DNA of 32,000 nt from Candidatus Babelota bacterium (GTDB lineage: Bacteria; Babelota; Babeliae; Babelales; Vermiphilaceae), in the NCBI GenBank assembly GCA_039809905.1, contig JBDHVY010000001.1:510001-542000 (forward strand), written 5' to 3'. Of this stretch, positions 1,953 through 31,234 are shown piece after piece. A program made the position numbers and the translations under genes. Under the pieces are notes generated by a model that saw nothing but the letters and a program-made list of their open reading frames with translations, ran no database searches and had not been told where the DNA came from. Position 1 is the first letter of the stretch; every line of letters starts with the position of its first letter.

Positions 1953-2130
1953 TGAAGGGTTTGAGACTGCGTAGCTTTGCGCAGCAGGTGAAAGCCCAAG
2001 TTTATTTTTCATCAGGGATCCAAGGGAACGTTGGGGTCTGGGGGTGTGGGGGGCCGGACCAGGGCCCCACCACGAAATTCCACAAAAATATAATTTTTGT
2101 GCGGGTGCCTAACTATATTGGGCATTAATC
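1953..2130 (+). repeat. Right arm of a GC-rich inverted pair. Candidate structured RNA or leader read toward the thioredoxin gene.
   Basis: It carries the same four hairpins with different stem sequences: ctgcg/cgcag, ggggcc/ggcccc (loop GGACCAG), cacaaaaat/atttttgtg and gcctaa/ttgggc. The last stem needs a U-G pair that exists only on the + strand. It is followed by attaatcttttttc, a T-run. Confidence 0.7.
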
Positions 2131-2645: not shown

Positions 2646-3776
2646 TTAAGAAGTATGATTAGTGCAAGGAGTACTAAATTGCCAGATACTCGTTGCCCAG
2701 CCCGATGCTAAACCTAACACAGCAACTATAGAACCAATGGTAGCATTTATTCTCTCTTGCTGTTTATTTTCAGCAATTGCTTGGCTTTGTAATGCCGTAT
2801 GAGTATCAGCAATCATTGAACGATTATTTATCTGACCATCAGCCTGGTCTATCGTTTTTTTCATAAGCTCAAGAAGTAATGCTTTATAAGCTTCAGGATT
2901 GTTTCGTTGCATTTTTGCATATTGCTCATTTAAATTATTCACATGCTGCTCATAGGGATCTCCGAAAAAACGATCCATCAGCTGGCGTATTATGTTTTTG
3001 TCTCCTTGCTGATTATTCACATGCATATGTTCAGTAATCAGCTTGGGATTAATATCTAACTGTTGCAGACATTCAGCAAAAACCCCCACATCATCCAGTC
3101 CTAACTTATGTTTTTGAGCAAATTCATGCAATACAGGATTACATGATTGGATGAATGCCCACACTTCTTTTTCTGTGTATTCTTTCTCATAGCTATCATC
3201 CAGAGCCTTACCCGTTAGCTGCACCAATGATTGTGGTAAAAATGATTTTTTCTGACGACGCAAAGAAGGAGCATCTTCATTACTTAATGAAGCAGAACGT
3301 TTACGAACAGGCTTAGATGCACTGCCGGCAGAGCGATTCAATGGAGCAACAGGTTTACGAACAGGTTTAGGTGTACTTTCAGCAGAACGATCCCGATGCG
3401 TGCGTTGAGTTACTACGAGTGCCTTTTCCAATTCCTTAACACTTGTTATTCTTGTTTTCATCAAATTACGCGATGAAGAATTTTGAGACGCAAGTATAAT
3501 AGCAGGAACTGGTGATTTTTTTTTATTTTTCTCACTCACTTCGTCAGTTATTTGAATAACAGTCTGAGAATTTTCTGGATCTTTGGTAAGAATCGGAGAA
3601 GACATTGGTTGGTTTTTGTTTATTTTCCCACTCGTTTCATCAGTTATTTGAATAACAGTCTGAGGGTTTTCTGGATTTTTGGATGGATTTTTTTTAAAAA
3701 CAGGATCATCCATACAGCATGTCATGAAAGCAAAAGATAGAGCACACACGACAAAGATATTTTTTTTTCTTTCCAT
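2646..3776 (-). CDS. Hypothetical exported protein with internal 32-aa repeats and a C-terminal hydrophobic anchor
   Basis: The 376-aa ORF has a GGGGG Shine-Dalgarno 6 nt upstream of its ATG and the signal peptide MERKKNIFVVCALSFAFMTCC. It repeats ENPQTVIQITDE twice and has KPVRK repeats. The C-terminal segment is IGSIVAVLGLASGWATSIWQF. Confidence 0.7.
   Translation of the reverse strand: MERKKNIFVVCALSFAFMTCCMDDPVFKKNPSKNPENPQTVIQITDETSGKINKNQPMSSPILTKDPENSQTVIQITDEVSEKNKKKSPVPAIILASQNSSSRNLMKTRITSVKELEKALVVTQRTHRDRSAESTPKPVRKPVAPLNRSAGSASKPVRKRSASLSNEDAPSLRRQKKSFLPQSLVQLTGKALDDSYEKEYTEKEVWAFIQSCNPVLHEFAQKHKLGLDDVGVFAECLQQLDINPKLITEHMHVNNQQGDKNIIRQLMDRFFGDPYEQHVNNLNEQYAKMQRNNPEAYKALLLELMKKTIDQADGQINNRSMIADTHTALQSQAIAENKQQERINATIGSIVAVLGLASGWATSIWQFSTPCTNHTS
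3539..3695 (-). repeat. Tandem 96-bp (32-codon) repeat inside the 2646..3776 gene
   Basis: cagttatttgaataacagtctgag occurs at 3545 and again at 3641 with similar flanks. It encodes P(E/S)N(P/S)QTVIQITDE(T/V)S. Confidence 0.8.
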
Positions 3777-14340: not shown

Positions 14341-15779
14341 TATAAAAAACAAGATTGAGTAAGATCTAAAAACTTTTTTAGATCTTGCTCAATCTTATTA
14401 AATAGTTCTTCTTTAGCAATTACTCCATTAAACAATTTCTGTACCTCAGCTGTTCCCATTGCTTTATTAAATGCTGCAGAAAAAGAAAATGGTATTTCTT
14501 CTTTTTTAAAAAATTCTAATATCGCAATGAATAATTCAAAAGAACGTAATTGACTGATATCAGAAAACTCCAAACGTAATCCTTTGCTCTTGCGATTATT
14601 TTTTGGATTTGTGTGATGATACAAAAAACTTTTTACCCCAAATGAACTAAACACCTTTTGTAATCGTCTCCATACATCTTGCGATATATTCATGTGCTTT
14701 GGTAATGCAATACATCTAAATGCCATATTAGTGCCAACACCTACATCAAAAGGTTCCACTTCACCTAAAAGACCCAGAAAACTATATCCATAACATGATT
14801 GTAATGATTGCAAATTAGGAGATAATTGATGAATAAATGTACCCATAAATCCTTTACTGCGATCATATTCTTGCATTGGTATAATAGATAAAGAAAGAGG
14901 TTTATCAATGATATTTTTATTAAAATAAGTAGCTAATTCGCCAATCGTCATGCCATGCCGCAATGGAATAGATGCAATGGAAATGAATGATATTAAATCT
15001 GGCTGCACCAATGGTCCTTGCATCAAAGAACCTAAAGGATTGGGGCGATCCAACACTATATATTGTTTTTTATATTCTGCAGCAATTTTCATGGTATTAA
15101 GCAAGGTAGAAATATAGGTATAATGGCGCATACCAGAATCTTGAATATCAAATATCAAGCAATCAAGTTCATTCATATGTTCAGCTGAAATCATTTTACC
15201 TGAACCATTACCATACAAACTCAAAACAGGAATTTTTGTTTTTTTATCAACAGAATCATGAACATCACGTTCAGCAAGAGTACCATTCAAACCATGCTCT
15301 GGTACAAAAATATATTTTACTGCAATGCCTTCATGCGCAAGAATATCAACAGTACGTTTTCCTTTTTGATCAACACCCGTTTGATTAGTAATTAATCCAA
15401 TAACACACGATTCTTTTTTTGCATCAGTACATATTGTTTGTATTAATGATGTTGGAATATTTTCAACACCCAGTTTGAATGCAGCATGTGCGTTAAAGAA
15501 AATGAAAAATATGGTATATGTGTGCAGTAACTGAAAGTTTGCTCTAAAAATAACTCTCTTCTTATCTAAATTTATTCCTTGTCCGCTCGCCCTGAACGCA
15601 GTGTTGACTGCTGAGCATAGTCGAAGCATCAGGGCGAGCGCAGAGAGTCTGAACATAATATTGCTCACTGAATTCAATCGAAGCATCAGGACAGACACAA
15701 AAATAAAAATAAAGACATTAGATAATTTTGGACTTTTTAATAAATTCGCATTCATAAGCATTTCCCTTATTATATGCAA
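14319..15779 (-). CDS. DUF1343 / NamZ-family exo-beta-N-acetylmuramidase-like protein; N-terminus uncertain
   Basis: Family motifs are VIGLITNQTGVD, FVPEHGLNG, IFDIQDSGMRHYTYISTL and VLDRPNPLG. The conserved domain starts near aa 100 of the ORF. The first ~75 codons are built from GC-rich palindromic repeat units. A signal-peptide-like FRANFQLLHTYTIFFIFFNAHA has no canonical start codon in front of it. Confidence 0.8.
   Translation of the reverse strand: MHIIREMLMNANLLKSPKLSNVFIFIFVSVLMLRLNSVSNIMFRLSALALMLRLCSAVNTAFRASGQGINLDKKRVIFRANFQLLHTYTIFFIFFNAHAAFKLGVENIPTSLIQTICTDAKKESCVIGLITNQTGVDQKGKRTVDILAHEGIAVKYIFVPEHGLNGTLAERDVHDSVDKKTKIPVLSLYGNGSGKMISAEHMNELDCLIFDIQDSGMRHYTYISTLLNTMKIAAEYKKQYIVLDRPNPLGSLMQGPLVQPDLISFISIASIPLRHGMTIGELATYFNKNIIDKPLSLSIIPMQEYDRSKGFMGTFIHQLSPNLQSLQSCYGYSFLGLLGEVEPFDVGVGTNMAFRCIALPKHMNISQDVWRRLQKVFSSFGVKSFLYHHTNPKNNRKSKGLRLEFSDISQLRSFELFIAILEFFKKEEIPFSFSAAFNKAMGTAEVQKLFNGVIAKEELFNKIEQDLKKFLDLTQSCFLYQPIPSA
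15584..15691. repeat. GC-rich palindromic repeat unit plus a degenerate tandem copy, inside the namZ-like ORF 5' region
   Basis: cgctcgccctga (15584-15595) and tcagggcgagcg (15629-15640) form a perfect 12-bp inverted repeat with a 33-nt spacer. An AT-shifted tandem copy, tctgaac...tcgaagcatcagga, lies at 15648-15691. The half-site recurs at 26278-26293. Confidence 0.8.
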
Positions 15780-22291: not shown

Positions 22292-23629
22292 CTACGCCTT
22301 ATAATTTCTCAGTAACCCAAATACATTCTCTTTTATTTTTGGCAATAATAGTAATAAGCCATACATGTTGATGTATAACATCATTGCAATAATAATGCCT
22401 GCTAAATCCCACACAAAATCAACTGCAGCGACCGCTCCCAATAAAGCGCACAAACTGTACGTAATATTGAATGCCATGCCAAAGCGATTGTTTGTTAAAA
22501 ACATCCATGCAGATTTAACTACATACGCGTAAGAAACCATAACACCAAATCCAAAACTTACGGCAAGGAAACTTACAATCCATCCACCATATATTCCAAA
22601 AACTGTTTCAAATGCAGCAATAGTAAGCGCTGTACTGTTAAGACCACTATCCCATACACCAGAAGCAACAATACATAGTGCAACGATGAGTCCAATAAAG
22701 GTACTAATAAATGTACTAATCATTCCCATGAAACCGTTTTGAACCACATCATTGTTTCCAGTGGAACCAAACATAATGGCTGCAGAACCAAGACCTGATT
22801 CAGTTGCAAAAATAGAGCGAGACATTCCCGCAGCAATCATTTGTTGGAAAGAAAAACCAATTACTCCTCCGGCAAAAGACTGTAACCCCAATCCACTTTT
22901 TATCATAAGAGACAACGCAGGAATGATAGATTGATAGTGAACAAAAAGAACAGTCAAAGAAGAAGCCATAAATACCACTACTTTAACCGGAACAATACTT
23001 AATGAAATTTTGGCAATTCTATCTGCGCCACCAAAAAGTATGTATAAAACAAATAATAAAAGACCAAGACCGCTGATAATTGGTGCAATTCCCCATGTTG
23101 CAGCCAAACTAACTGCCATAGAATTTGATTGGATAACATTTCCACCAATTAAACCATAAATAACACAGAAAAATGCATATAACCAAGGAAGGTAAGATCC
23201 GCCAGGAACACGTTTAAGGTAAAGCATTGGTCCACCAAGAGAGCCTTTTTCTGTTGTTTGCGCTGCAAAAAGTGAACTAATATATACCTCGCCAAAACGT
23301 ACGGTCATTAAAATCAATCCAAATACAACAAACCAAAATGCTGCACCTGGACCACCTGAATAGATAGCCGTTGCAACGCCAGCAATAACACCATTACCTA
23401 AATTTGAATTAATCGTATTCATAAAAGCATGAAAGGGAGACATTCCTTCTGCTTGTTGCGATCCTTTTTGAGAAGGGAAAAGAGCAGTTTTAAGTGCTGT
23501 TGTAAGATACGTAAATTGCATACCACGTAAAGCAACTGTATAAATAATGCTGATAACACCAACATAAATAAGTAGTGGCCATCCACATACAACATCAGCC
23601 AGTTGATTTATTAATAGTACAAAATCCAT
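22292..23629 (-). CDS. Alanine/glycine:cation symporter (AGCS family)
   Basis: The 445-aa polytopic membrane protein has AGCS-like segments (GPGAAFWFVVFGLILMTVRFGE, ATESGLGSAAIMFG). It lies directly upstream of murE on the same strand. Confidence 0.8.
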   Translation of the reverse strand: MDFVLLINQLADVVCGWPLLIYVGVISIIYTVALRGMQFTYLTTALKTALFPSQKGSQQAEGMSPFHAFMNTINSNLGNGVIAGVATAIYSGGPGAAFWFVVFGLILMTVRFGEVYISSLFAAQTTEKGSLGGPMLYLKRVPGGSYLPWLYAFFCVIYGLIGGNVIQSNSMAVSLAATWGIAPIISGLGLLLFVLYILFGGADRIAKISLSIVPVKVVVFMASSLTVLFVHYQSIIPALSLMIKSGLGLQSFAGGVIGFSFQQMIAAGMSRSIFATESGLGSAAIMFGSTGNNDVVQNGFMGMISTFISTFIGLIVALCIVASGVWDSGLNSTALTIAAFETVFGIYGGWIVSFLAVSFGFGVMVSYAYVVKSAWMFLTNNRFGMAFNITYSLCALLGAVAAVDFVWDLAGIIIAMMLYINMYGLLLLLPKIKENVFGLLRNYKA

Positions 23630-23798
23630 AAGCGCTCCTCGCGTAAAAAAAATAATTTTAAAACATCAACATAATTAGTATACTTATTTTTTATATTTAT
23701 ACAGCACCCAATTAGCACCAAAAGTCTCTTTAGCAAACTTCGTTAACGTTCGCACGAATATTAGCTAAAAAAAATATTGGCTGCAAAGTCTTTTATGA

Positions 23799-23830
23799 GG
23801 TCCCCGTGTGTAAAGCATTGAGCATGGGGC
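23799..23830 (+). repeat. Intercistronic hairpin family, copy d (5' of ruvX)
   Basis: In ggtCCCCGTG-tgtaaagcattgag-CATGGGGc, the 7-bp stem includes a G-U pair that is valid only on the + strand. It ends 17 nt before ATG 23848. Confidence 0.7.
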
Positions 23831-23847
23831 TATTATGTGGAGTTACC

Positions 23848-24309
23848 ATGAAAATTCTTGCTCTTGATATCGGTGATCGTTGGACAGGAGTTGCTATCTC
23901 TGATCCATTAGGAATACTACCCCGCCCTTATGATACTTTTAAAACCAATGAATTATATGCATGCTTAGAAAAAGTAATTGCTCAAGAACGCATTTCCACC
24001 ATTGTTGTTGGATTGCCAACCACGCTACGCGGTACTGAAAGTGATCAAACAAAAAAAGTTATTGCTATGACACATGATTTGCAAAATCACTTTCCAAACA
24101 TTGAATGGAAAATGTGGGATGAAAGACTAACAAGTAAACAAGCATCTCAGATAAAACCAGCCAAAACAAAAGAAGATAAATTACGCTCCCATGCCGTTGC
24201 TGCCGCAATTTTTTTAAGTACTTATCTTGAACACAAACGATTTTTAAATCCATCTACAGATTATTTTGACAATAATGATGACTCTGATTCAGAAAACGAC
24301 GCTGTTTAA
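23848..24309 (+). CDS. ruvX: YqgF/RuvX-family putative pre-16S rRNA nuclease (Holliday-junction-resolvase-like)
   Basis: The start of ORF 23806..24309 lies inside the hairpin. ATG 23848 has a GGAG Shine-Dalgarno 5 nt upstream and gives MKILALDIGDRWTGVAISD, the YqgF N-terminal motif. VVGLPTTLRGTES and WDERLTSKQA also fit. The C-terminal tail is acidic. Confidence 0.85.
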   Translation: MKILALDIGDRWTGVAISDPLGILPRPYDTFKTNELYACLEKVIAQERISTIVVGLPTTLRGTESDQTKKVIAMTHDLQNHFPNIEWKMWDERLTSKQASQIKPAKTKEDKLRSHAVAAAIFLSTYLEHKRFLNPSTDYFDNNDDSDSENDAV

Positions 24310-24408
24310 TTACAGGCTATAATGTTGATTGACAACATACACCTTTATATTTTAGGTTGACATATAAAAGGAAAACAACTTCGATTCCCAAATTCTCGGT
24401 TTTTTAAA

Positions 24409-24440
24409 GGGTCTCCAATCAGAGTAAAGCTCGATTGGGT
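24409..24440 (+). repeat. Intercistronic hairpin family, copy a (5' of the zinc-ribbon ORF)
   Basis: In gggtcTCCAATC-agagtaaagctc-GATTGGGt, the 7-bp stem includes a U-G pair that is valid only on the + strand. It ends 19 nt before ATG 24460. Confidence 0.65.
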
Positions 24441-24459
24441 TTAAAAAAAGGAGTAGTTT

Positions 24460-24639
24460 ATGAAGTGTCAAAAATGTGATGGTTTATTAGTTCTTCAAAC
24501 ATTTTTTGATCATCCTCTCAATTTTGAGGGGTGGAAATGCTTAAATTGTGGTAAAATAGTATTGAAAAAAGAAAAGACTATAGAATACGATTCATTTAGT
24601 CTTTTTTACCAACAACAGAAAAGTAAAAATCGAAATTAA
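24460..24639 (+). CDS. Small zinc-ribbon protein (59 aa), absent from the supplied ORF track
   Basis: My translation is MKCQKCDGLLVLQTFFDHPLNFEGWKCLNCGKIVLKKEKTIEYDSFSLFYQQQKSKNRN. AGGAG at 24449-24453 lies 6 nt before the ATG. The two CxxC pairs are 21 residues apart. The gene sits between ruvX and tsaB on the same strand. Confidence 0.65.
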   Translation: MKCQKCDGLLVLQTFFDHPLNFEGWKCLNCGKIVLKKEKTIEYDSFSLFYQQQKSKNRN

Positions 24640-24669
24640 CATTTGTAACCTTTTGCGCTATTCTTGAAT

Positions 24670-24705
24670 GGAGTCCCCATACGAGATGTCGATAAAGTAT
24701 GGGGC
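24670..24705 (+). repeat. Intercistronic hairpin family, copy b (5' of tsaB)
   Basis: ggagtCCCCATAC-gagatgtcgataaa-GTATGGGGc has an 8-bp perfect stem. It ends 16 nt before ATG 24722. Confidence 0.7.
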
Positions 24706-24721
24706 AAAATGATGGGGCAAA

Positions 24722-25348
24722 ATGCATTCATACTTAGCAATACAACACACACAAGACACATTTGAGATAGCACTGTGTATCGATAATAATATTATGGATA
24801 CAATTTCAGATGATAAACGCCACACGAGTAAATTATTTATTCCACATTTAGAGCAATTACTCAGCAAAAATAATATAACTTTTGCTGAGCTTTCTTTTTG
24901 CGTAGTTAATTGCGGACCAGGTCCCTTTTCTACCCTCAGATCAATTATTGCATCAGTGAATGGCTTGCATTTAGCAACCAACATGCCTTTAATAAGTATT
25001 GATGGTCTTGAAGCCACTTTTTTGGAATATTATGATCCTGTATATGAAAACACCGTTGTTTTACTGAATGCCTTCAATAATGAAAGTTATTATTTAACTG
25101 CTCATGGCAACAAAATTATATCCACCGGATATAAAAATACCGATATATTAAAACAGGAAATCGTAGAACAATTCGCTGCACCATCCCTTAATATTATCGA
25201 TAATAAAACCTGTTCGGTTGAAACTATTGGACGCCTTGGATATGAAAAGTATATCAACAAACAACCATTAGATGGATATCTTTTGCCTCTGCACTTGAAA
25301 AAACATCCTGTAGAACGTAACTTTCAACAGCCTTTTGATAAAAAATAA
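24722..25348 (+). CDS. tsaB: tRNA threonylcarbamoyladenosine biosynthesis protein TsaB (YeaZ)
   Basis: The 208-aa ORF has the TsaB pattern: N-terminal LAIQHTQDTFEIAL (compare ILAIDTATE..SVAL), then H(T)SKLFIPHLEQLL, then CGPGPFSTLRSIIASVNGL (compare GPGSFTGVRIG). Confidence 0.8.
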   Translation: MHSYLAIQHTQDTFEIALCIDNNIMDTISDDKRHTSKLFIPHLEQLLSKNNITFAELSFCVVNCGPGPFSTLRSIIASVNGLHLATNMPLISIDGLEATFLEYYDPVYENTVVLLNAFNNESYYLTAHGNKIISTGYKNTDILKQEIVEQFAAPSLNIIDNKTCSVETIGRLGYEKYINKQPLDGYLLPLHLKKHPVERNFQQPFDKK

Positions 25349-25402
25349 CAATTAATATATGCTAATAGAGAATGAAAAAGCATAGCCTAAAGGAGCGCTT
25401 TT

Positions 25403-26011
25403 ATGAAGATATACAACGCCATTTTAGCAGCATTGACAGCAATAACTTTTGCAAGCATAACAATAGCTCAAGAAACAAACTTAAATCAACAAGATCTTGA
25501 AGAAAAAGAACGGGCAGAACGCAGTAATAGACCTATTGTCCCTGTCATATTTAGGAGTTCAAGAGAGGGTTTACCATGGGATGTTAATAAAACACCTACA
25601 ACTCCTGATACCATTTATCATTATGTGAACCCTGCTTCTGCTCGAAATTTTTATCGCAAGCGTATATTTTTCGGTACAGATCAATCAGGCAAACCTTGTT
25701 ATAAAAGAATTAGGGAACACGCAAAAGATAATCCTGAGTTTGGCAATGTTGGGCTAGTTATATTTCACCAGCAAGCGTGGCATAAATTACATTTTTCTGA
25801 CTCGTTTGAAGTGGTAGGCACCTATGCTGATGAATCTGCACGGAACAAATTAATTAACAGCATGAGTGGATTTTGGATATTAACTGAAGGCAATGGTGGT
25901 GTATGGTGTCCAGAACAAAATGTATTTATTGGTGGAACGCGAGATAAGCAGATATGTGATAGATTTGCTGAATATATGAAACAATCAGAACAATCAAAAA
26001 AGATGGAATAG
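25403..26011 (+). CDS. Hypothetical exported protein (orphan)
   Basis: The 202-aa ORF has an AGGAG Shine-Dalgarno 7 nt upstream and the signal peptide MKIYNAILAALTAITFASITIAQ. No family recognised. Confidence 0.65.
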   Translation: MKIYNAILAALTAITFASITIAQETNLNQQDLEEKERAERSNRPIVPVIFRSSREGLPWDVNKTPTTPDTIYHYVNPASARNFYRKRIFFGTDQSGKPCYKRIREHAKDNPEFGNVGLVIFHQQAWHKLHFSDSFEVVGTYADESARNKLINSMSGFWILTEGNGGVWCPEQNVFIGGTRDKQICDRFAEYMKQSEQSKKME

Positions 26012-26064
26012 TTTTTGATTTTCGTCCTTCGATAGATTTTACTATCTCAAACATTTCGTAAAAC

Positions 26065-26116
26065 ATTCAGGCCGAACGGGTTAAAAATTTACTTTCTTAC
26101 TCCGTTCGGCCTGAAT
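26065..26116 (+). terminator. Perfect 15-bp GC-rich inverted repeat; probable operon terminator and member of the CGYTCGSCCTGAA repeat family
   Basis: attcaggccgaacgg (26065-26079) pairs with ccgttcggcctgaat (26102-26116) around a 22-nt spacer. It starts 54 nt after the stop at 26011 and is followed by atttatattt. Confidence 0.55.
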
Positions 26117-26168
26117 ATTTATATTTAAGCATGAATCTTTAAAATGACCCACCGCGCTCATTAGCTTA

Positions 26169-26226
26169 GCCCCATGCTTCACTCTGTTACACATGGGGTC
26201 CCCAATGAAACGAAGTGTAATTGGGG
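26169..26226 (+). repeat. Intercistronic hairpin family, copies c1 and c2 (adjacent double hairpin)
   Basis: c1 is GCCCCATG-cttcactctgttaca-CATGGGGT (8 bp; the terminal G-U works only on +). It is followed immediately by c2, tCCCCAAT-gaaacgaagtgta-ATTGGGG (7 bp). Confidence 0.7.
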
Positions 26227-26277
26227 TGAAAAGAATTAAGCGCATAAAAAAGCGCTCGAAAGATACCCTTCAACAAG

Positions 26278-26293
26278 TTCAGGGCGAGCGCAG
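26278..26293. repeat. Half-site of the GC-rich palindromic repeat family
   Basis: ttcagggcgagcgcag shares a 15-nt match, tcagggcgagcgcag, with 15629-15643. It can pair with ccgttcggcctgaa (26102-26115) with one mismatch and one wobble, enclosing 26116-26277. Confidence 0.6.
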
Positions 26294-26354
26294 CGAGAAA
26301 TAAACTAAGACAAGGAAAATTTAGTCTTCCGCAAGTTTGAAAAATTGGGCTTTT

Positions 26355-27257
26355 TTACGCTCCATATTCTCGCAACAACTGCTCAAGATTATGATAATTA
26401 TATTTCATAGCAATAGTCAGCGCAGTGCCAACTTCGTTATCAATAACACGGTCTACCACAGCTCCCTCATCCAAAAGCACACGAACACCATCTATATTAT
26501 TTTTTTCAACAGCCATGATAAGCAAGGTTTTGCCATTTTCTAAGCAATTAACATCAGCTTGAGCATGATGAACAAATAATGATATTAATGCACTATTTTT
26601 TTTATGTTCAATAATATACCACAGTAATTCCGATGCTTTTTGCTGAGCAATACGAACTTTTTTACTAAACAATGTTTCTACAGCAGCATAATCATTGTCT
26701 TCTACTGCTCTTTTAAATGCTTGTTCAGCATAATTTGCTAAAAGTCCGCTTTTTGCGCGAGTCTTTTGGCGATCTTTGCCCCACGCAATAAATAACCCTA
26801 TATCCTCGGCATACTTATTGCGAGCAAGAGACAATAAGACAGGTGTTTCCATATCAAAACAAGGATACTCTAACAACAAATCCAACCATTCATAATACAT
26901 GTTTTTTTTACTATACGCATGCATCATTCCATAAATAATATTTAGTTTTTCTTCTAAAGATAAACAAATTGTTTCATCTTTAATTATTTTTTCTACCACA
27001 AGTCGTGCACAGCTACACTTAAATTGACTGATTACTTTAATAATAAGATCAACATCATGCGTCAAAAATAATGAATTCATTTCTTGATACACATGTTCGA
27101 TAGAAAAATTAATCGTAGCATCTGATTTAGTATCACATATATCAATATGTGTTGAAGTTACCAAATTTTTCTTATTATTATTTAAAAAAAATATACTAAT
27201 GCAAAAAAAAGACATAATAATAAATAACCGGAGAACTCCTTCTTGCCTGCCTTCCAT
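26355..27257 (-). CDS. Membrane-anchored protein with C-terminal ankyrin repeats
   Basis: ORF 26355..27281. ATG 27257 has a GGGGGAG Shine-Dalgarno 6 nt upstream. The N-terminal TM segment is LRLFIIMSFFCISIFFL. The C-terminal ANK-like sequence is GKTLLIMAVEKNNIDGVRVLLDEGAVVD...GTALTIAMKYNYHNLEQLLREYGA. Confidence 0.7.
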   Translation of the reverse strand: MEGRQEGVLRLFIIMSFFCISIFFLNNNKKNLVTSTHIDICDTKSDATINFSIEHVYQEMNSLFLTHDVDLIIKVISQFKCSCARLVVEKIIKDETICLSLEEKLNIIYGMMHAYSKKNMYYEWLDLLLEYPCFDMETPVLLSLARNKYAEDIGLFIAWGKDRQKTRAKSGLLANYAEQAFKRAVEDNDYAAVETLFSKKVRIAQQKASELLWYIIEHKKNSALISLFVHHAQADVNCLENGKTLLIMAVEKNNIDGVRVLLDEGAVVDRVIDNEVGTALTIAMKYNYHNLEQLLREYGA

Positions 27258-27400
27258 TACATACTCCCCCATCCTCAACAAAAAACGCCTTTTACACCTT
27301 CTATAACAATAGTGTAATAATCAAAAACATAAAAAATCAACAAAATTTGTAAGTACTATTTGAAAAAATAAAACAACTTTTTATTTGGTCATAATTATTA

Positions 27401-27434
27401 CCCCCCATGTTCCACGCCGTTTGACACGAGGACC
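27401..27434 (-). repeat. Intercistronic hairpin family, copy e (minus strand, 3' of rsmE)
   Basis: On the - strand it reads ggtCCTCGTG-tcaaacggcgtggaa-CATGGGGgg. The 7-bp stem has two wobble pairs that are valid only on the - strand, which is the sense strand of both flanking genes. Confidence 0.6.
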
Positions 27435-27493
27435 TGCACGTAGAGTAATTAAACAGGGAAATAAAGTATACGAACTCAAAAGATAAACAAAAA

Positions 27494-28240
27494 CTAAAGT
27501 ATAGAGCGAATAACACCAGCACCAAGAGATGCTGCTTGAAAAGCTCGTATAACAGTAGGCGTAAGAGCACAAAAAATAAATGCTTTTTTACGTACCAATT
27601 CTTTTTCTTCTAAACTTAAATCTCCTTCTGGTCCAACCAAAAGCAGTATCTTGCGAGTTTTTTCCGCCTGTATAAGTGTCATCACATCATATAATTTTTT
27701 TCCGGCTGGATCAAAAAATAACTTTATACAATCGGCAGCATGCTGATTAAACGCAGCATCAAGAGATATGGGTTCTTGTAATAGTGGATACGAAAAATTT
27801 TTAGATTGCTCTGCTGCAGCAATAAGTATTCGTTCAGCACGCTCACGATCCTTGCTTGCCCATTGATGAGCTGTTTTTTGCGTAAATATTAATTGAATTG
27901 TATTAACTCCAACTTCCGTAAGTGCATATAAAGCTGCTTCGTAATCATCTCGCTTAAGCAACGGCAATAAAAAGGTTACCGATGGCTGCAATGCCATATT
28001 TTTTTGATATGACACTATTTCCACAGAAAATTGTTTTTTACCAATAAAACTGATGATTTTAGCCTCTATGTGTATCTGACGATCAAAAAAAATACATCTA
28101 TCATCTGTTCTTAGCCGTAAAACATTCACTATTCTATGCAACAATTTTTCATCGGAAAATGTTACCATACTACCAGTTTTTTTTTCTTGAATAAGTGAAG
28201 ATAATGTTTCTACAAATAAAGCAAATTCGTGTTTTTCCAT
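27494..28240 (-). CDS. rsmE: 16S rRNA (uracil1498-N3)-methyltransferase RsmE
   Basis: ORF 27494..28252 starts with TTG; the first ATG is at 28240. RsmE-like features include a PUA-like N-terminus and the C-terminal LLVGPEGDLSLEE motif (compare IGPEGG.S..E). Confidence 0.8.
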   Translation of the reverse strand: MEKHEFALFVETLSSLIQEKKTGSMVTFSDEKLLHRIVNVLRLRTDDRCIFFDRQIHIEAKIISFIGKKQFSVEIVSYQKNMALQPSVTFLLPLLKRDDYEAALYALTEVGVNTIQLIFTQKTAHQWASKDRERAERILIAAAEQSKNFSYPLLQEPISLDAAFNQHAADCIKLFFDPAGKKLYDVMTLIQAEKTRKILLLVGPEGDLSLEEKELVRKKAFIFCALTPTVIRAFQAASLGAGVIRSIL

Positions 28241-28256
28241 AGCAAAAAGCAAAAGA

Positions 28257-28628: not shown

Positions 28629-28804
28629 AAAAAATGATCCTTTTTTATAACTATAATATCTTAATAAAGTACCTAAAAAATTAAAAAAAGCTCTTTTTTT
28701 TGCAAAAAGCTTTTTTGCTTGCCCGAGACATATTGAGCAACCCTCTTTTTTTTGATACTCTTGCAAATATACGGTAAAAAAACCTAATAAAATGGGGCTC
28801 AATA

Positions 28805-31234
28805 ATGATCTCACGGATAATTGCAAAAATCGTTGGCACTAATAATGAACGTCAAATAAAAAAATTACTTCCTATTGTTGAAAAAATTAATGCATTAGAA
28901 CCATCAATCAAGCTTTTATCTGATGAACAACTTGCGCAGAAAACTGTTGAATTTAAATCGCAGTTAGCTGCAGGAAAATCACTTGATGATATTTTACCTG
29001 AAGCGTTTGCTGTTGTTCGCGAGGCAGGATTTCGAACCCTCGGGCAACGGCATTTCGATGTCCAGCTCATGGGTGGGATTGTACTCCATCAAGGTAAAAT
29101 TTCTGAAATGAAAACGGGTGAAGGTAAAACACTCACCGCAACATTACCTCTCTATTTAAATGCCTTAACCGGAAAAGGTGCACACTTAGTTACCGTAAAC
29201 GATTATCTTGCGCGTCGCGATTCTGAATGGATGAGTCCTATTTATAAATTTCTTGGTCTTGAAGTTGCGTGTTTGCAGAATGCAATGAGCGATGAAGAAC
29301 GTCAAAAAGCTTATGCTGCTGATATTTTGTATGCAACAAACAATGAGCTTGGTTTTGATTACTTACGCGACAATATGAAATTTCGCAAAAGTGATCTTGT
29401 GCAACGTGCCCTTGCATTTGCAATTGTTGATGAGGTCGATTCCATTTTAATCGATGAAGCAAGAACTCCTCTTATTATTTCTGGTTCTGCTGAAGAAGTA
29501 GGAAACCTTTATCGCGATGCTGATCGTGTTGTATCTCATTTAGAAAAAATAACGGATTATGAAGTTGATGAAAAAGCTCGCACCGTGCTTTTAACTGAAT
29601 CTGGTGTTGATAAAATTGAACATGCATTTAATATTTCTAACTTATATCTTATCGAACACATGAAATTATTGCATCACATTAATCAAGCATTGCGCGCACA
29701 CGCTCTTTTCAAACGCGATGTTGATTATGTGGTAGCAAATAATCAGGTATTAATTGTTGATGAATTTACCGGAAGAATTTTACCGGGACGCCGTTATAGT
29801 GATGGATTACATCAGGCGCTTGAGGCAAAAGAAAACGTTGAAATTGAACGCGAAAGCCAAACGCTTGCCAGCATTACACTCCAAAATTTCTTCAGACTTT
29901 ATAAAAAACTCGCAGGTATGACCGGTACTGCAGCAACTGAAAGCGAAGAGTTTCATAATATTTATAAACTTGATGTAATCTCTATCCCACCAAATCGCAC
30001 AATGATTAGAAAAGATATGCCAGATCTTATCTTTTTAACTAAAAACGCAAAATATAAAGCCATTGTAGAAGATATCAGAGAACGATATGCAAAAGGTCAA
30101 CCCGTTCTTATCGGTACTATTGCAATTGAAACATCAGAATTATTGAGTACCATTTTAACTGCACATGGCATTAAACATGATGTCCTTAACGCAAAACAAC
30201 ATGAACGAGAAGCTGAAATTGTTGCTCATGCAGGTGAATCTGGACGAATTACCATCGCAACAAATATGGCTGGTCGTGGTACTGATATTAAACTGACACC
30301 AGAATCAATTGCAGCAGGAGGTTTATATATCTTAGGAACAGAACGCCACGAAAGCAGAAGAATTGATAATCAGTTACGTGGACGATCTGGTCGTCAAGGA
30401 GACCCTGGCGAATCTCGTTTTTATATTTCATTAGAAGATGATTTAGTACGTATTTTTGCGGGAGAATCGTTAAAAAATAAAATGGTTTTCTTTGGTATGC
30501 AAGAAGACGAAATTATAGAATCACGTCTTGTCTCAAAAACTATTGAACGAGCACAAGAACGTGTTGAAAAACACAACTTTGATAATCGTAAGCATTTGCT
30601 GGAATATGATGATGTTTTAAATCAGCAACGTATTGTTATTTATGATCATCGTCTTGATGCTCTTGAAGGTGAAAATCGTATTTATGAATTGATCCGAGAT
30701 TTTATTACTACCATTATTCAAGATCTAATTGCGTATAATGCACCAACAAGAAATATAACAAACGATCAAGTTGCCAAAATATATGAAGCTTTAGAATACA
30801 TAACAGGTCTTAAAGCGAAAGAATTTGAAAATGCAGCTTTAAGCACAGCAAACGTTGAATTATTTGAAAAAGATCTCATTATTTTCTTGCTTGAGCGCTA
30901 TGAATTATATCGCAAACAGCACAATGAAGCTATCATGAAAGCTGCCGAAAAATGGCTTGTTTTAGAGACAATTGATAAAGCATGGCGTCAGCATATGCTT
31001 AATCTTGATCATCTGAAAGAAGGAATTGGTTTGCGCGGCTGGGGACAAAAAAATCCGCTTATTGAATACAAACGAGAAGCTTTTGATATGTTCCGTGAAA
31101 TGATGTCTCATATTCGCTTTGATATTGTTCATCATATTTTCCATGCTAATCTTACCCAGATTAATACAGAAGAACTTGAAGAACAACGCGATGAAGAAAT
31201 GGAACGTCTCAATTTTTCCGGAACAGAACAATAA
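28805..31234 (+). CDS. secA: Preprotein translocase ATPase SecA
   Basis: The 809-aa ORF has the N-terminal KIVGTNNERQIKKL and the DEAD-like motor motifs MKTGEGKTL, DEVDSILIDEARTPLIISG, GMTGTA, TNMAGRGTDI and LRGRSGRQGDPG. Confidence 0.95.
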   Translation: MISRIIAKIVGTNNERQIKKLLPIVEKINALEPSIKLLSDEQLAQKTVEFKSQLAAGKSLDDILPEAFAVVREAGFRTLGQRHFDVQLMGGIVLHQGKISEMKTGEGKTLTATLPLYLNALTGKGAHLVTVNDYLARRDSEWMSPIYKFLGLEVACLQNAMSDEERQKAYAADILYATNNELGFDYLRDNMKFRKSDLVQRALAFAIVDEVDSILIDEARTPLIISGSAEEVGNLYRDADRVVSHLEKITDYEVDEKARTVLLTESGVDKIEHAFNISNLYLIEHMKLLHHINQALRAHALFKRDVDYVVANNQVLIVDEFTGRILPGRRYSDGLHQALEAKENVEIERESQTLASITLQNFFRLYKKLAGMTGTAATESEEFHNIYKLDVISIPPNRTMIRKDMPDLIFLTKNAKYKAIVEDIRERYAKGQPVLIGTIAIETSELLSTILTAHGIKHDVLNAKQHEREAEIVAHAGESGRITIATNMAGRGTDIKLTPESIAAGGLYILGTERHESRRIDNQLRGRSGRQGDPGESRFYISLEDDLVRIFAGESLKNKMVFFGMQEDEIIESRLVSKTIERAQERVEKHNFDNRKHLLEYDDVLNQQRIVIYDHRLDALEGENRIYELIRDFITTIIQDLIAYNAPTRNITNDQVAKIYEALEYITGLKAKEFENAALSTANVELFEKDLIIFLLERYELYRKQHNEAIMKAAEKWLVLETIDKAWRQHMLNLDHLKEGIGLRGWGQKNPLIEYKREAFDMFREMMSHIRFDIVHHIFHANLTQINTEELEEQRDEEMERLNFSGTEQ

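What the first reader, a model, noticed from the sequence alone, without database searches (positions are those of the whole stretch)
23799..27434. Family of six co-oriented intercistronic hairpins (GGTCCCC-N3 / loop 12-15 / N3-GGGG) with strand-specific wobble pairs
There are six copies:
- d at 23799-23830
- a at 24409-24440
- b at 24670-24705
- c1 and c2 at 26169-26226
- e at 27401-27434, on the minus strand

All share a 5' G-rich lead-in (GGTCCCC, GAGTCCCC, GGGTCTCC or GGTCCTC), a 7-8 bp stem whose inner three base pairs differ between copies yet stay complementary (gtg/cat, aatc/gatt, atac/gtat, aat/att), and a 12-15 nt purine-rich loop. Loops a and d share GTAAAGC.

Four of the six stems contain G-U or U-G pairs that would be A-C mismatches on the opposite strand. 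In every case the pairing strand is the sense strand of the flanking genes, including copy e on the minus strand between rsmE and the ankyrin gene. That pattern points to selection on the RNA rather than on the DNA.

Copies d, a and b end 16-19 nt upstream of the start codons of three consecutive genes: ruvX, the zinc-ribbon ORF and tsaB. None has a U-tract, so they are not classical terminators.

The 3' arm (ATGGGGC) resembles the G-rich Shine-Dalgarno sequences used elsewhere in the window: GGGGG before the genes starting at 3776 and 4321, and ATGGGGC 6 nt before the secA ATG. Possible roles are an mRNA processing or stability punctuation element, translational control by a Shine-Dalgarno mimic, or a binding site for an unknown protein. 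Any link to the RNase-like RuvX encoded in the same operon is pure speculation.
Basis: partly seen in the sequence, partly recalled or inferred. Interest (0 to 1): 0.7.

Follow-up and report, generated by a model that had tools for sequence, protein, structure and literature searches.

The report
REP-like hairpin repeats in a Babeliales genome
Five of the six hairpins are copies of a small palindromic repeat that is scattered through the spaces between genes in one group of amoeba-associated bacteria, which makes them ordinary selfish or neutral repeat DNA of a known general kind rather than a dedicated RNA control signal.

Summary
All six hairpins exist at the stated coordinates. Five (d, b, c1, c2, e) form a statistically solid family: covariance-model E-values run from 2e-14 to 4e-6, and 0 such hairpins appear in 100 shuffles.

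- c1 lies on the minus strand. c1 and c2 form a head-to-head inverted doublet sharing GGGG(T/A)CCCC, enclosed by an outer inverted repeat.
- The "12-15 nt loop" is structured: a GNA/GNA internal loop, a covarying 2-bp helix and a triloop.
- Copy a is a look-alike. It is a position-conserved leader hairpin of the 59-aa zinc-ribbon gene, kept even in a relative that has no family copies.

The window comes from a Candidatus Babeliales (Dependentiae) bacterium. The closest syntenic relatives lack d and b. Other relatives carry different copies in the same spacers or none at all.

In 623 kb of related metagenome contigs I found 212 copies: 108 singletons and 52 heterodimeric doublets with defined ends and unique flanks. 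Singletons between co-directional genes are 38 sense and 22 antisense. G-U wobbles are equally frequent in both orientations.

This is a REP/REPIN-like, MITE-like repeat with a GGGGW 5' tag. The agent that mobilises it was not identified.

The parts
23796..23833 (+). Copy d, a singleton. Degenerate tag GAGGT, 8-bp stem CCCCGTGT/GCATGGGG with two G-U pairs, 12-nt loop. It lies in the ruvX 5' region.
   Evidence: The covariance model scores it 27.1 bits, E=4e-6, and it folds at -14.2 kcal/mol. It sits inside about 130 nt that the closest relative L125 lacks. Its loop gtaaagcattga is identical to that of a copy at a non-orthologous site, L003 17848.
24407..24443 (+). Hairpin a. It is a conserved leader hairpin of the 59-aa zinc-ribbon gene. 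It is either a look-alike or a very old, fixed copy, and not a clear family member.
   Evidence: It scores only 16.2 bits, E=0.014. It is orthologously conserved in L002, L003 and L125, and L125 has no family copies. In L005, L127, L128 and L220 it is replaced by a different hairpin.
24669..24708 (+). Copy b, a singleton with the B-type tail. Tag GGAGT, stem CCCCATAC/GTATGGGG, tail CAAAATG.
   Evidence: It scores 29.0 bits. The 59aa-tsaB spacer is 82 nt here, 14 nt in L125 and 8 nt in L006.
24699..24724 (+). Tandem duplication ATGGGGCAAAATG x2, made of the 3' arm and tail of b. The second copy supplies the GGGG and the ATG start codon of tsaB.
   Evidence: Read directly from the sequence. The tsaB start at 24722 is confirmed by alignment with L125.
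26166..26204 (-). Copy c1, the minus-strand half of the doublet. Tag GGGGA, stem CCCCATGT/GCATGGGG.
   Evidence: It scores 51.8 bits on the minus strand. Its loop is purine-rich only on the minus strand.
26194..26230 (+). Copy c2, the plus-strand half of the doublet. Tag GGGGT, stem CCCCAAT/ATTGGGG.
   Evidence: It scores 36.6 bits. The two halves overlap in the central GGGGTCCCC.
26154..26243 (.). Composite doublet element. An outer inverted repeat GCGCT...AGCGC encloses c1 and c2. It can fold either as a three-way junction or as one long imperfect hairpin.
   Evidence: Folds. The same architecture, with unique flanks, occurs at many non-orthologous sites in related contigs. L177 has an 87%-identical copy.
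27399..27437 (-). Copy e, a singleton. Degenerate tag CAGGT, stem CCTCGTGT/ACATGGGG with two wobbles. It lies between the rsmE and ankyrin genes.
   Evidence: It scores 38.6 bits. The model finds no copy in this spacer in L002, L003, L005, L127 or L128.
26252..26291 (+). Module of a second repeat family (GCGCTCGAAAGATACCCTTCAACAAGTTCAGGGCGAGCGC). In related contigs it often directly follows the doublet.

Best explanation
Five of the six hairpins (d, b, c1, c2, e) are copies of a dispersed, non-autonomous palindromic repeat of Candidatus Babeliales. In build and behaviour it matches REP/REPIN elements and small MITEs.

**The unit**
- An unpaired 5' tag GGGG(T/A).
- A 7-8-bp stem whose foot is CCCC/GGGG and whose inner pairs vary by compensatory change.
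- A 13-nt cap that itself forms G-N-A / G-N-A mismatches, a 2-bp helix and a triloop.

**Arrangement**
- Units occur singly, or as head-to-head heterodimers that overlap in the palindrome GGGGWCCCC.
- The heterodimers are bounded by terminal inverted repeats (GCGCTCG...CGAGCGC).

**Shown here**
- Copies sit in intergenic spacers at non-orthologous sites.
- They come and go between close relatives.
- They occur in both orientations relative to transcription.
- They bring sequence with them that can remodel a neighbour's translation start, as at tsaB.

**Inferred**
- They spread as DNA.
- The one-strand-specific pairing and the tag next to the hairpin foot are what elements handled as single-stranded hairpins show (the IS200/IS605 and REP/RAYT logic).
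- The enzyme responsible was not identified.
- Because the copies are co-transcribed with flanking genes, any effect on mRNA stability or translation is a side effect, not the reason they exist.

Copy a is a separate, position-conserved leader hairpin of the zinc-ribbon gene.
For: **Family membership**
- The covariance model finds the five copies at E=2e-14 to 4e-6 and nothing else in the window.
- The detector finds 0 copies in 100 shuffles.

**Presence and absence at orthologous spacers**
- d is absent upstream of ruvX in L002, L003, L005, L125 and L127.
- b is absent in L003, L005/L006, L125 and L128, while L002 has two copies there.
- L125/L126 and L127 have no copies at all in 12-19 kb of synteny.

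**Dispersal**
- Identical or near-identical loops occur at non-orthologous sites in other genomes.
- I found 212 copies in 623 kb of low-GC metagenome contigs, including 52 heterodimeric doublets.
- Doublets have defined ends with unique flanks, and several near-identical copies occur in one sample.
- The flanking genes of the doublets are not orthologous.

**Orientation**
- Singletons are 38 sense to 22 antisense. Doublet polarity is 8 to 6.
- Copies also occur in divergent spacers (10 singletons and 5 doublets).
- Wobble frequency is independent of transcription direction.

**Structure**
- 98% of cells are paired, with compensatory changes.
- The inner helix covaries.

**Match to published REP biology**
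- Published features are an unpaired tag at one end, head-to-head or tail-to-tail dimers sometimes 1-2 bp apart, heterodimers, ORF mis-annotation over the repeats, and families that lack a dedicated transposase, including families in Rickettsia and Wolbachia (PMC3733652).
- REPs are defined as a guide tetranucleotide 5' to a hairpin foot (PMC6006769).
Against: - No REP-associated or other transposase is linked to the family. A tblastn search of about 900 kb of Babeliales-like DNA found one IS200-type TnpA (L220), and its ends do not carry these hairpins.
- The tag is GGGGW, not GT[AG]G or CGTC.
- No clean empty-site versus filled-site pair was found, so transposition itself is not demonstrated. 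The d and b spacers differ from L125 by more than the hairpin alone.
- A weak sense bias remains. It is 38:22 in the metagenome set alone (my unrun estimate, p about 0.05) and 45:25 when pooled with the first, smaller set.
- The conserved purines in the cap show sequence-specific constraint. A host RNA- or DNA-binding protein could also impose that constraint.
- Copy-number and orientation statistics come from loci chosen because they contain a copy, and from crude ORF calls.
Confidence: 0.65

Rival explanations
1. RNA-level element. The hairpins act in the mRNA as processing or stability punctuation, or as Shine-Dalgarno mimics or sequesterers, and are bound by an unknown protein that reads the conserved purine cap.
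For: - In this window d, a, b and e are all sense to the flanking genes and lie upstream of start codons.
- Singletons show a modest sense excess, 38:22.
- G-U pairs are tolerated while A-C mismatches are rare.
- The cap nucleotides G1, A3, A8, G11 and A13 are conserved (and with the caveat that the metagenome search pattern fixed some of these positions).
- In L003 a weak (15-bit) family match ends in GGGG 7 nt before the secA ATG, and the window keeps ATGGGGC at that position.
Against: - 37% of singletons are antisense, and every doublet has one antisense half.
- Wobble frequency is the same in antisense copies, whose mRNA complement would carry A-C mismatches.
- Copies are not conserved at orthologous spacers, and whole lineages lack them.
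- Distances to start codons range from -12 to 452 nt with no peak.
- In d, a and b a separate Shine-Dalgarno sequence lies outside the hairpin.
- No Rfam family matches, even at E<=10.
Confidence: 0.15
2. DNA-level host function. The palindrome GGGGWCCCC and its flanking hairpins (cruciforms) are binding sites for a nucleoid, topoisomerase, replication or restriction-modification protein, in the way E. coli REPs bind gyrase and IHF.
For: - The central GGGGWCCCC is a perfect 9-bp palindrome in the doublets.
- The copies are restricted to intergenic DNA.
- Published REP roles include gyrase and IHF binding (PMC6006769).
Against: - Pairing is strand-asymmetric, with G-T on one strand only. A double-stranded binding site would not need this.
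- Singletons carry only half of the palindrome.
- Related lineages manage without any copies in the same region.
Confidence: 0.07
3. Unconventional transcription terminators without a U-tract, possibly bidirectional, placed between genes.
For: The copies are hairpins with a GC-rich foot in intergenic spacers. Some lie between convergent genes, including the window doublet, and some antisense copies abut stop codons.
Against: - No U-tract follows the hairpin on either strand.
- Copies occur in divergent spacers and in 5' leaders, including d.
- Copies sit between tightly linked co-directional genes.
- The copies are gained and lost between relatives.
Confidence: 0.03

Closest known systems
REP / BIME / REPIN elements (GTAG-tagged repetitive extragenic palindromes mobilised by RAYT tyrosine transposases)
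   Same: - A short imperfect palindrome with a GC-rich foot and an unpaired conserved tag 5' of the foot.
- Many intergenic copies, both singletons and inverted dimers that can fold separately or as one long hairpin.
- Heterodimers.
- Copies variable between relatives.
- Gene callers run ORFs through them.
(PMC3733652, PMC6006769.)
   Different: - The tag is GGGG(T/A), not GT[AG]G.
- The inner stem is AT-rich, and the cap is a structured 13-nt purine motif.
- The two dimer halves overlap in a 9-bp palindrome.
- No RAYT was found.
- The host is a small-genome Dependentiae bacterium, whereas RAYT-carrying genomes tend to be large.
CGTC-tagged REPs of Alphaproteobacteria, including Rickettsia (RPE-4/6) and Wolbachia
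   Same: REP-like repeats in obligate intracellular bacteria with no dedicated transposase. In some of these families the dimer partners are only 1-2 bp apart.
   Different: The tag and sequence differ, and the phylum is different. Intragenic insertions are common in Rickettsia, but none was seen here.
Subterminal hairpins of IS200/IS605 insertion sequences and their miniature derivatives
   Same: A hairpin recognised on one DNA strand, with a guide tetranucleotide just 5' of the hairpin foot. From memory only, the IS608 end hairpin also has a CCCC/GGGG foot.
   Different: The copies do not flank a tnpA gene. The one IS200-type tnpA found in a relative (L220) has different ends.
MITEs (miniature inverted-repeat transposable elements, such as Correia/NEMIS)
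   Same: The roughly 90-bp doublet has terminal inverted repeats (GCGCTCG...CGAGCGC) and unique flanks. It is nested with other repeats and is co-transcribed with neighbouring genes.
   Different: No target-site duplication was recognised. No parent insertion sequence with the same ends was found.

Membership tests
REP / REPIN (repetitive extragenic palindromes) | Short (20-40 nt) imperfect palindrome able to form a stem-loop | tested here: met
   The hairpins are 27-30 nt plus a 5-nt tag. Across 39 copies, 98% of cells are paired.
REP / REPIN (repetitive extragenic palindromes) | Many dispersed copies confined to intergenic DNA | tested here: met
   There are 5 copies in the window, 39 in 170 kb of Babeliales loci and 212 in 623 kb of metagenome contigs. 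Some apparent intragenic cases could be traced to over-extended ORF calls, for example NamZ in L005; others were not checked individually. Whole-genome counts were not obtainable.
REP / REPIN (repetitive extragenic palindromes) | Conserved unpaired tetranucleotide (GT[AG]G, or CGTC) at the 5' foot of the hairpin | tested here: not met
   A conserved unpaired tag is present, but it is GGGGT (133 copies) or GGGGA (57 copies) out of 212. The architecture is the same and the sequence differs. I therefore file this as REP-like, not as a member of the GTAG or CGTC super-families.
REP / REPIN (repetitive extragenic palindromes) | Inverted dimers (REPIN/BIME organisation) | tested here: met
   I found 52 head-to-head heterodimers, including c1/c2 in the window. 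They can fold as two hairpins or as one long hairpin.
REP / REPIN (repetitive extragenic palindromes) | Cognate RAYT (Y1 HUH transposase, PF01797) gene flanked by the repeats | tested here: inconclusive
   - No RAYT turned up in about 900 kb of Babeliales-like DNA. The only hit was one IS200-type tnpA, without these hairpins at its ends.
- In Acidobacteria, one RayT-like gene (L103) is directly preceded by a GGGGT-CCCCAT hairpin.
- Five loci carrying homologues of that gene have no such hairpins.
- Complete genomes could not be scanned.
Intrinsic (Rho-independent) terminators | GC-rich hairpin with a short loop, immediately followed by a U-tract, downstream of a gene | tested here: not met
   No U-tract is present. 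The cap is 12-15 nt. Copies occur in 5' leaders and in divergent spacers.
Any described structured RNA family (Rfam 15) | Match to a curated covariance model | tested here: not met
   There was no match at gathering score over the whole window, and none at E<=10 over 23600-27600 apart from chance-level eukaryotic hits. None was found in 18 loci from other phyla either.
MITE | Terminal inverted repeats plus target-site duplication, with a related autonomous insertion sequence | tested here: inconclusive
   Terminal inverted repeats and unique flanks are seen for the doublet. No target-site duplication and no parent element were recognised.

The most novel reading that the evidence does not exclude
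GGGGW-tagged hairpins with a CCCC(A/G)T...ATGGGG foot may form a third, pan-bacterial super-family of REP-like elements, alongside the GTAG and CGTC types.

- The same head and foot recur as dispersed, often clustered hairpin repeats in Acidobacteriota, Clostridia, Bacteroidota, WOR-3, Thermus, Nitrospirota, Burkholderiales, Saccharibacteria and Amycolatopsis.
- The Dependentiae branch replaced the middle of the stem with a GNA/GNA purine motif.
- That branch would persist in 1-1.5 Mb genomes without a cognate transposase, perhaps because a host protein now reads the structure.
Probability: 0.2. Interest if true: 0.6.

Novelty: new member of a known kind. Interest (0 to 1): 0.35.

Why it matters
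- It explains a striking local pattern as repeat DNA rather than regulation. That prevents over-interpreting the operon and corrects gene starts that callers place inside the repeats: the ruvX start in the 3' arm of d, and the NamZ N-terminus in a relative.
- It documents an abundant REP-like family in Dependentiae. The papers I could read describe these reduced genomes as nearly free of mobile elements. I estimate roughly one copy per 5 kb in some lineages and none in others.
- The family gives a sharp marker for strain and lineage comparison.
- It shows repeats remodelling translation-initiation regions, as at tsaB.
- Its GGGGW tag, its structured purine cap and its look-alikes in many phyla are a concrete lead on how tag-plus-hairpin repeats are recognised and spread where no RAYT is present.

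Tried and rejected
- **Rfam.** A gathering-score scan of the whole window, a scan at E<=10 over the region, and a scan of 18 loci from other phyla found nothing relevant.
- **Literature.** The two Dependentiae genome papers that are held do not mention such repeats. The TM6SC1 paper is not held, so my vague memory of an upstream motif there is unverified. A search by sequence string returned only unrelated papers.
- **Hammerhead ribozyme.** CUGAYGAGCGC flanks several doublets, but the rest of the core is not in place. I rejected this by inspection.
- **Consistent doublet polarity.** The first small sample looked 5:0 sense by my reading of the contexts. The larger set gave 8:6.
- **RAYT link.**
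  - tblastn with remembered IS608 TnpA and E. coli RAYT sequences, and with two RayT-like proteins from Acidobacteria, found those two Acidobacteria genes near hairpins (L029, L103) and one IS200-type gene in L220.
  - Five loci carrying homologues of the L103 RayT-like gene, most of them in a conserved YacG-RayT-PgpA gene arrangement, have no such hairpins.
  - The link is therefore not established.
- **First genome-contig scan.** The scan with TsaB found nothing.
- **Exact look-up of RuvX.** The look-up failed because the deposited gene call starts inside hairpin d.
- **Clean empty-site comparison.** The closest relative is only about 83% identical, and the spacers differ by more than the hairpin.

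Full report
**Source and genes.** The window has 33.8% G+C. Its RuvX has hundreds of homologues at 70-86% identity, and the few that carry an organism name are from Candidatus Babeliales, phylum Dependentiae/TM6.
- Na/Ala symporter, 22292-23629 (-)
- RuvX, 23848-24309 (+)
- a 59-aa CxxC...CxxC ORF, 24460-24639 (+)
- TsaB, 24722-25348 (+)
- a hypothetical gene, 25403-26011 (+)
- an ankyrin protein, 26355-27281 (-)
- RsmE, 27494-28252 (-)
- SecA, 28805-31234 (+)

**Checking the observation.** All six hairpins are present and fold as described. I built a covariance model (R1) from 12 gap-free copies, 2 from this window and 10 from related genomes.
- c1, 26166-26204, minus strand: 51.8 bits
- e, 27399-27437, minus strand: 38.6 bits
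- c2, 26194-26230, plus strand: 36.6 bits
- b, 24669-24708, plus strand: 29.0 bits
- d, 23796-23833, plus strand: 27.1 bits
- a, 24407-24443, plus strand: 16.2 bits, E=0.014

A rule-based detector finds five copies in the window and none in 100 dinucleotide-preserving shuffles. The family is therefore real, but two descriptive points need correcting.
- c1 is on the minus strand. Only there does it have the 5' tag and the purine-rich cap. c1 and c2 are an inverted, head-to-head doublet overlapping in GGGGTCCCC.
- An outer inverted repeat, GCGCT at 26154-26158 and AGCGC at 26239-26243, encloses the doublet. The roughly 90-nt unit can fold as a three-way junction or as one long imperfect hairpin.

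**Anatomy of the unit.** I aligned 39 copies from Babeliales loci. The consensus is (T/C)GGGG(T/A), then CCCC(A/G)NNN, then a 13-nt cap, then NNN(T)GGGG.
- 98.3% of stem cells form standard pairs.
- The four inner pairs carry 37 compensatory cells. No shuffle reaches this, and slid registers collapse.
- The "loop" is structured. Cap positions 4-10 and 5-9 form a 2-bp helix with strong covariation. In the 39 copies this is AU 23, GU 6, GC 3 at the first pair and UA 11, CG 10, AU 5 at the second.
- An independent set of 111 distinct caps shows the same: AT 83 and GC 21 at the first pair, TA 34, CG 32, GC 10 and TG 9 at the second. That is 96% and 82% paired, against 82% and 48% after shuffling.
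- This helix is flanked by G-N-A on each side, which could form G-A mismatch pairs, and is capped by a triloop.
- The element is thus an irregular rod of about 13 stacked pairs. Its overall size is similar to the longer hairpins described below from other phyla.

**The wobble asymmetry.** The asymmetry is real. Stem pair 5 is A-U in 27 copies and G-U in 11 copies, and never A-C. Overall there are 21 wobble cells against 5 unpaired cells. However, it follows the element's own polarity, meaning the strand with the tag and the purine cap, and not the direction of transcription. In the larger data set, wobbles make up 6.4% of pairs in sense copies, 5.4% in antisense copies, and 5.6-7.7% in copies in convergent or divergent spacers.

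**Comparative evidence.** I fetched syntenic loci from relatives: L002, L003, L005/L006, L125/L126, L127 and L128/L129. L220 turned up by chance. All keep the gene order symporter / ruvX / 59-aa gene / tsaB ... ankyrin / rsmE ... secA.
- **Copy d.** No relative has a family copy upstream of ruvX. L125, the closest at about 83% nucleotide identity, has 20 nt where the window has about 150 nt.
- **Copy b.** The 59aa-tsaB spacer is 14 nt in L125 and 8 nt in L006. It holds a different long hairpin in L003. In L002 it holds two family copies plus scrambled fragments of the 59-aa gene.
- **The convergent spacer after tsaB.** This spacer holds the c1/c2 doublet in the window, two same-strand (+) copies in L002, one copy in L003, one in L128, and none in L005 or L127.
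- **Copy e.** It has no counterpart in any relative.
- **Lineages without copies.** L125/L126 and L127 have no copy at all in 12-19 kb.
- **Shared loops at non-orthologous sites.** The loop of d, gtaaagcattga, is identical to that of L003 17848. The loop of c1 closely resembles that of L003 8517.

**Copy a behaves differently.** Its hairpin is conserved in position and sequence in the leader of the 59-aa gene in the window, L002, L003 and L125, even though L125 has no family copies. In L005, L127, L128 and L220 a different hairpin replaces it. It lacks the GGGGW tag and scores at the noise edge. I treat it as a gene-specific leader hairpin, or at most an ancient fixed copy.

**Wider census.** Of these, 113 are low-GC, with a median of 36%.
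- In 623 kb the detector finds 212 copies: 108 singletons and 52 head-to-head doublets.
- All 52 doublets are heterodimers with recurring partner types, for example CCCCATC/gaaagaaactgaa paired with CCCCGATT/ggaacgaagtgga.
- Doublets have sharp ends: GCGCTCGTCAGCTTAA, hairpin, W, hairpin, ATAAAGGATATCYTCGAGCGC. The flanks are unique, and several near-identical copies come from one sample.
- The genes next to doublets in different loci are not orthologous.
- Singletons between co-directional genes are 38 sense and 22 antisense.
- Doublet polarity is 8 to 6.
- 14 singletons and 4 doublets lie between convergent genes, and 10 singletons and 5 doublets lie between divergent genes.
- Distances to the next start codon run from -12 to 452 nt with no peak.
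- Antisense copies often abut the stop codon of the upstream gene.
- From the seven loci chosen by synteny rather than by repeat content, I estimate a density of about 27 copies in 134 kb, very uneven between lineages.

**Interpretation.** The family shows these features:
- a short palindrome with a conserved unpaired tag at the foot
- intergenic dispersal
- inverted heterodimers
- rapid gain and loss between relatives
- both orientations relative to transcription
- nesting with other repeats
- gene callers running ORFs through the copies

These are the hallmarks of REP/REPIN-type repeats and small MITEs as described in the literature (PMC3733652; PMC6006769). That literature also records REP families without a dedicated transposase, including families in the obligate intracellular Rickettsia and Wolbachia. 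I therefore read d, b, c1/c2 and e as copies of a Babeliales REP-like repeat.

The one-strand-specific pairing and the tag-next-to-foot layout fit recognition as a single-stranded hairpin, as in IS200/IS605 and REP/RAYT systems. This step is inference only.

**The search for a transposase.**
- A tblastn search of about 900 kb of Babeliales-like DNA found only one IS200-type TnpA (L220 342-851). It lies 1.8 kb from a doublet, and its own ends lack these hairpins.
- The Babela massiliensis genome paper reports only one IS4 transposase (PMC4378268).

**RNA-level consequences.** They are plausible as side effects. At tsaB, the sequence just upstream of the start codon is now a duplicated element tail, ATGGGGCAAAATG x2. 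A deposited gene call starts ruvX at the ATG inside the 3' arm of d.

- By inspection, roughly three quarters of the matches carry four or more extra complementary pairs, whereas I estimate that only a few percent would do so by chance. They form lineage-specific repeat families with the same head and foot but a longer stem and a small loop.
- These families occur in Acidobacteriaceae/Terriglobales (two sub-families), Defluviitaleaceae and other Clostridia, Bacteroidota, WOR-3, Thermus, Nitrospirota, Burkholderiales and Saccharibacteria.
- In Amycolatopsis the motif occurs inside a long, near-perfect palindrome.
- The hairpins often occur in clusters whose members have different stems.
- None matches Rfam.
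- In Acidobacteria a RayT-like PF01797 gene is directly preceded by such a hairpin in L103, and another lies within about 700 nt of one in L029.
- Five loci carrying homologues of the L103 RayT-like gene, most of them in a conserved YacG-RayT-PgpA gene arrangement, have no such hairpins. The transposase link is a lead, not a result.
- Di Nocera et al. note a GGGGWSAS motif in inverted repeats that flank RAYT-like genes. This is similar to the GGGGWCCC seen here but not identical.

**Verdict.** The thing is a new member of a known kind: a REP-like, MITE-like repeat family in Dependentiae. It has an unusual tag, a structured purine cap and possible relatives across phyla. Interest is modest, and it would rise if the cross-phylum GGGGW-tagged class and its mobilising or binding protein were established.

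Noticed in passing
window 15584-15640, 26065-26116, 26252-26291: A second repeat family. These are long hairpins or half-sites built on TCAGG(G/C)CGA(G/A)CG, with 5 matches against 0.04 expected by chance. The family also occurs in L003, L005, L010, L080 and L102. In related contigs it often directly follows the doublet as TCGAAGAAATCCTTCAACAAGTTCAGGACGAGCGC, so the two families form composite units.
   Followed up: partly
window 24699-24724: A perfect 13-nt tandem duplication, ATGGGGCAAAATG x2, made of the 3' arm and tail of copy b. The second copy provides the GGGG and the ATG start codon of tsaB. In relative L125 an A-rich 14-nt spacer stands in its place.
   Followed up: partly
L002 10997-11239: Between the 59-aa gene and tsaB, two family hairpins are each followed by a fragment of the 59-aa gene. 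The fragments are out of order (3' part first, then a middle part). This suggests duplication or rearrangement associated with the repeats.
   Followed up: no
window 24310-24459 and the orthologous leaders in L002, L003, L005, L125, L127, L128, L220: The leader of the highly conserved 59-aa CxxC...CxxC gene is itself strongly conserved (two TTGACA motifs and AAAAGGAAAACAACTTCG). It ends in one of two mutually exclusive hairpins just before the Shine-Dalgarno sequence. This looks like a gene-specific regulatory leader. The protein has no Pfam match.
   Followed up: partly
window 23824-23850; L005 842-2377: Gene callers start ORFs inside or run them through the repeats. A deposited call starts ruvX at the ATG in the 3' arm of d, giving 161 aa instead of 153 aa. 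The NamZ ORF of L005 is extended by about 80 codons through four or five repeat copies.
   Followed up: partly
window 28793-28807; L003 14808-14851: ATGGGGC lies 6 nt before the secA ATG with no 5' arm upstream. In L003 a hairpin (CCCCAAT...ATTGGGG) that is only a weak family match (15 bits, E=0.03) ends 7 nt before the secA ATG. The window's GGGG may be a relic 3' arm now serving as the ribosome-binding site.
   Followed up: no
L220 342-851 (-): An IS200-type Y1 transposase gene in a syntenic relative of the window. It is 38% identical over 115 aa to a remembered IS608 TnpA sequence, E=4e-23. It lies 1.8 kb from a doublet and from tandem composite repeats of about 125 bp, next to two unannotated ORFs.
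   Followed up: partly
window 2030-2075: A G/C-rich island (GGGGTCTGGGGGTGTGGGGGGCCGGACCAGGGCCCCACC) in an otherwise AT-rich spacer upstream of the thioredoxin gene. It is not a family member, and no tRNA or Rfam hit covers it.
   Followed up: no
L011, L018, L021, L034, L046, L070, L105, L118 and other Amycolatopsis loci: A dispersed long palindrome of about 46 bp, perfect or near-perfect, TGAGGGGTCCCCATAGGACGAA(A/T)TTCGTCCTATGGGGACCCCTCA. It is present in many contigs of several Amycolatopsis genomes.
   Followed up: no
L250, L252-L257 (Terriglobales): A RayT-like PF01797 gene sits in a conserved, overlapping gene arrangement (radical-SAM MiaB-like, YacG, RayT, PgpA) with no flanking hairpins. 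This looks like a vertically inherited, domesticated copy.
   Followed up: no
L007 and L015 (Acidobacteriaceae): The GGGGT-CCCCAT hairpin is nested inside another widespread repeat: GTCATCCTGAGCGAAcc[hairpin]tggagaaGCGAAGGACC.
   Followed up: no
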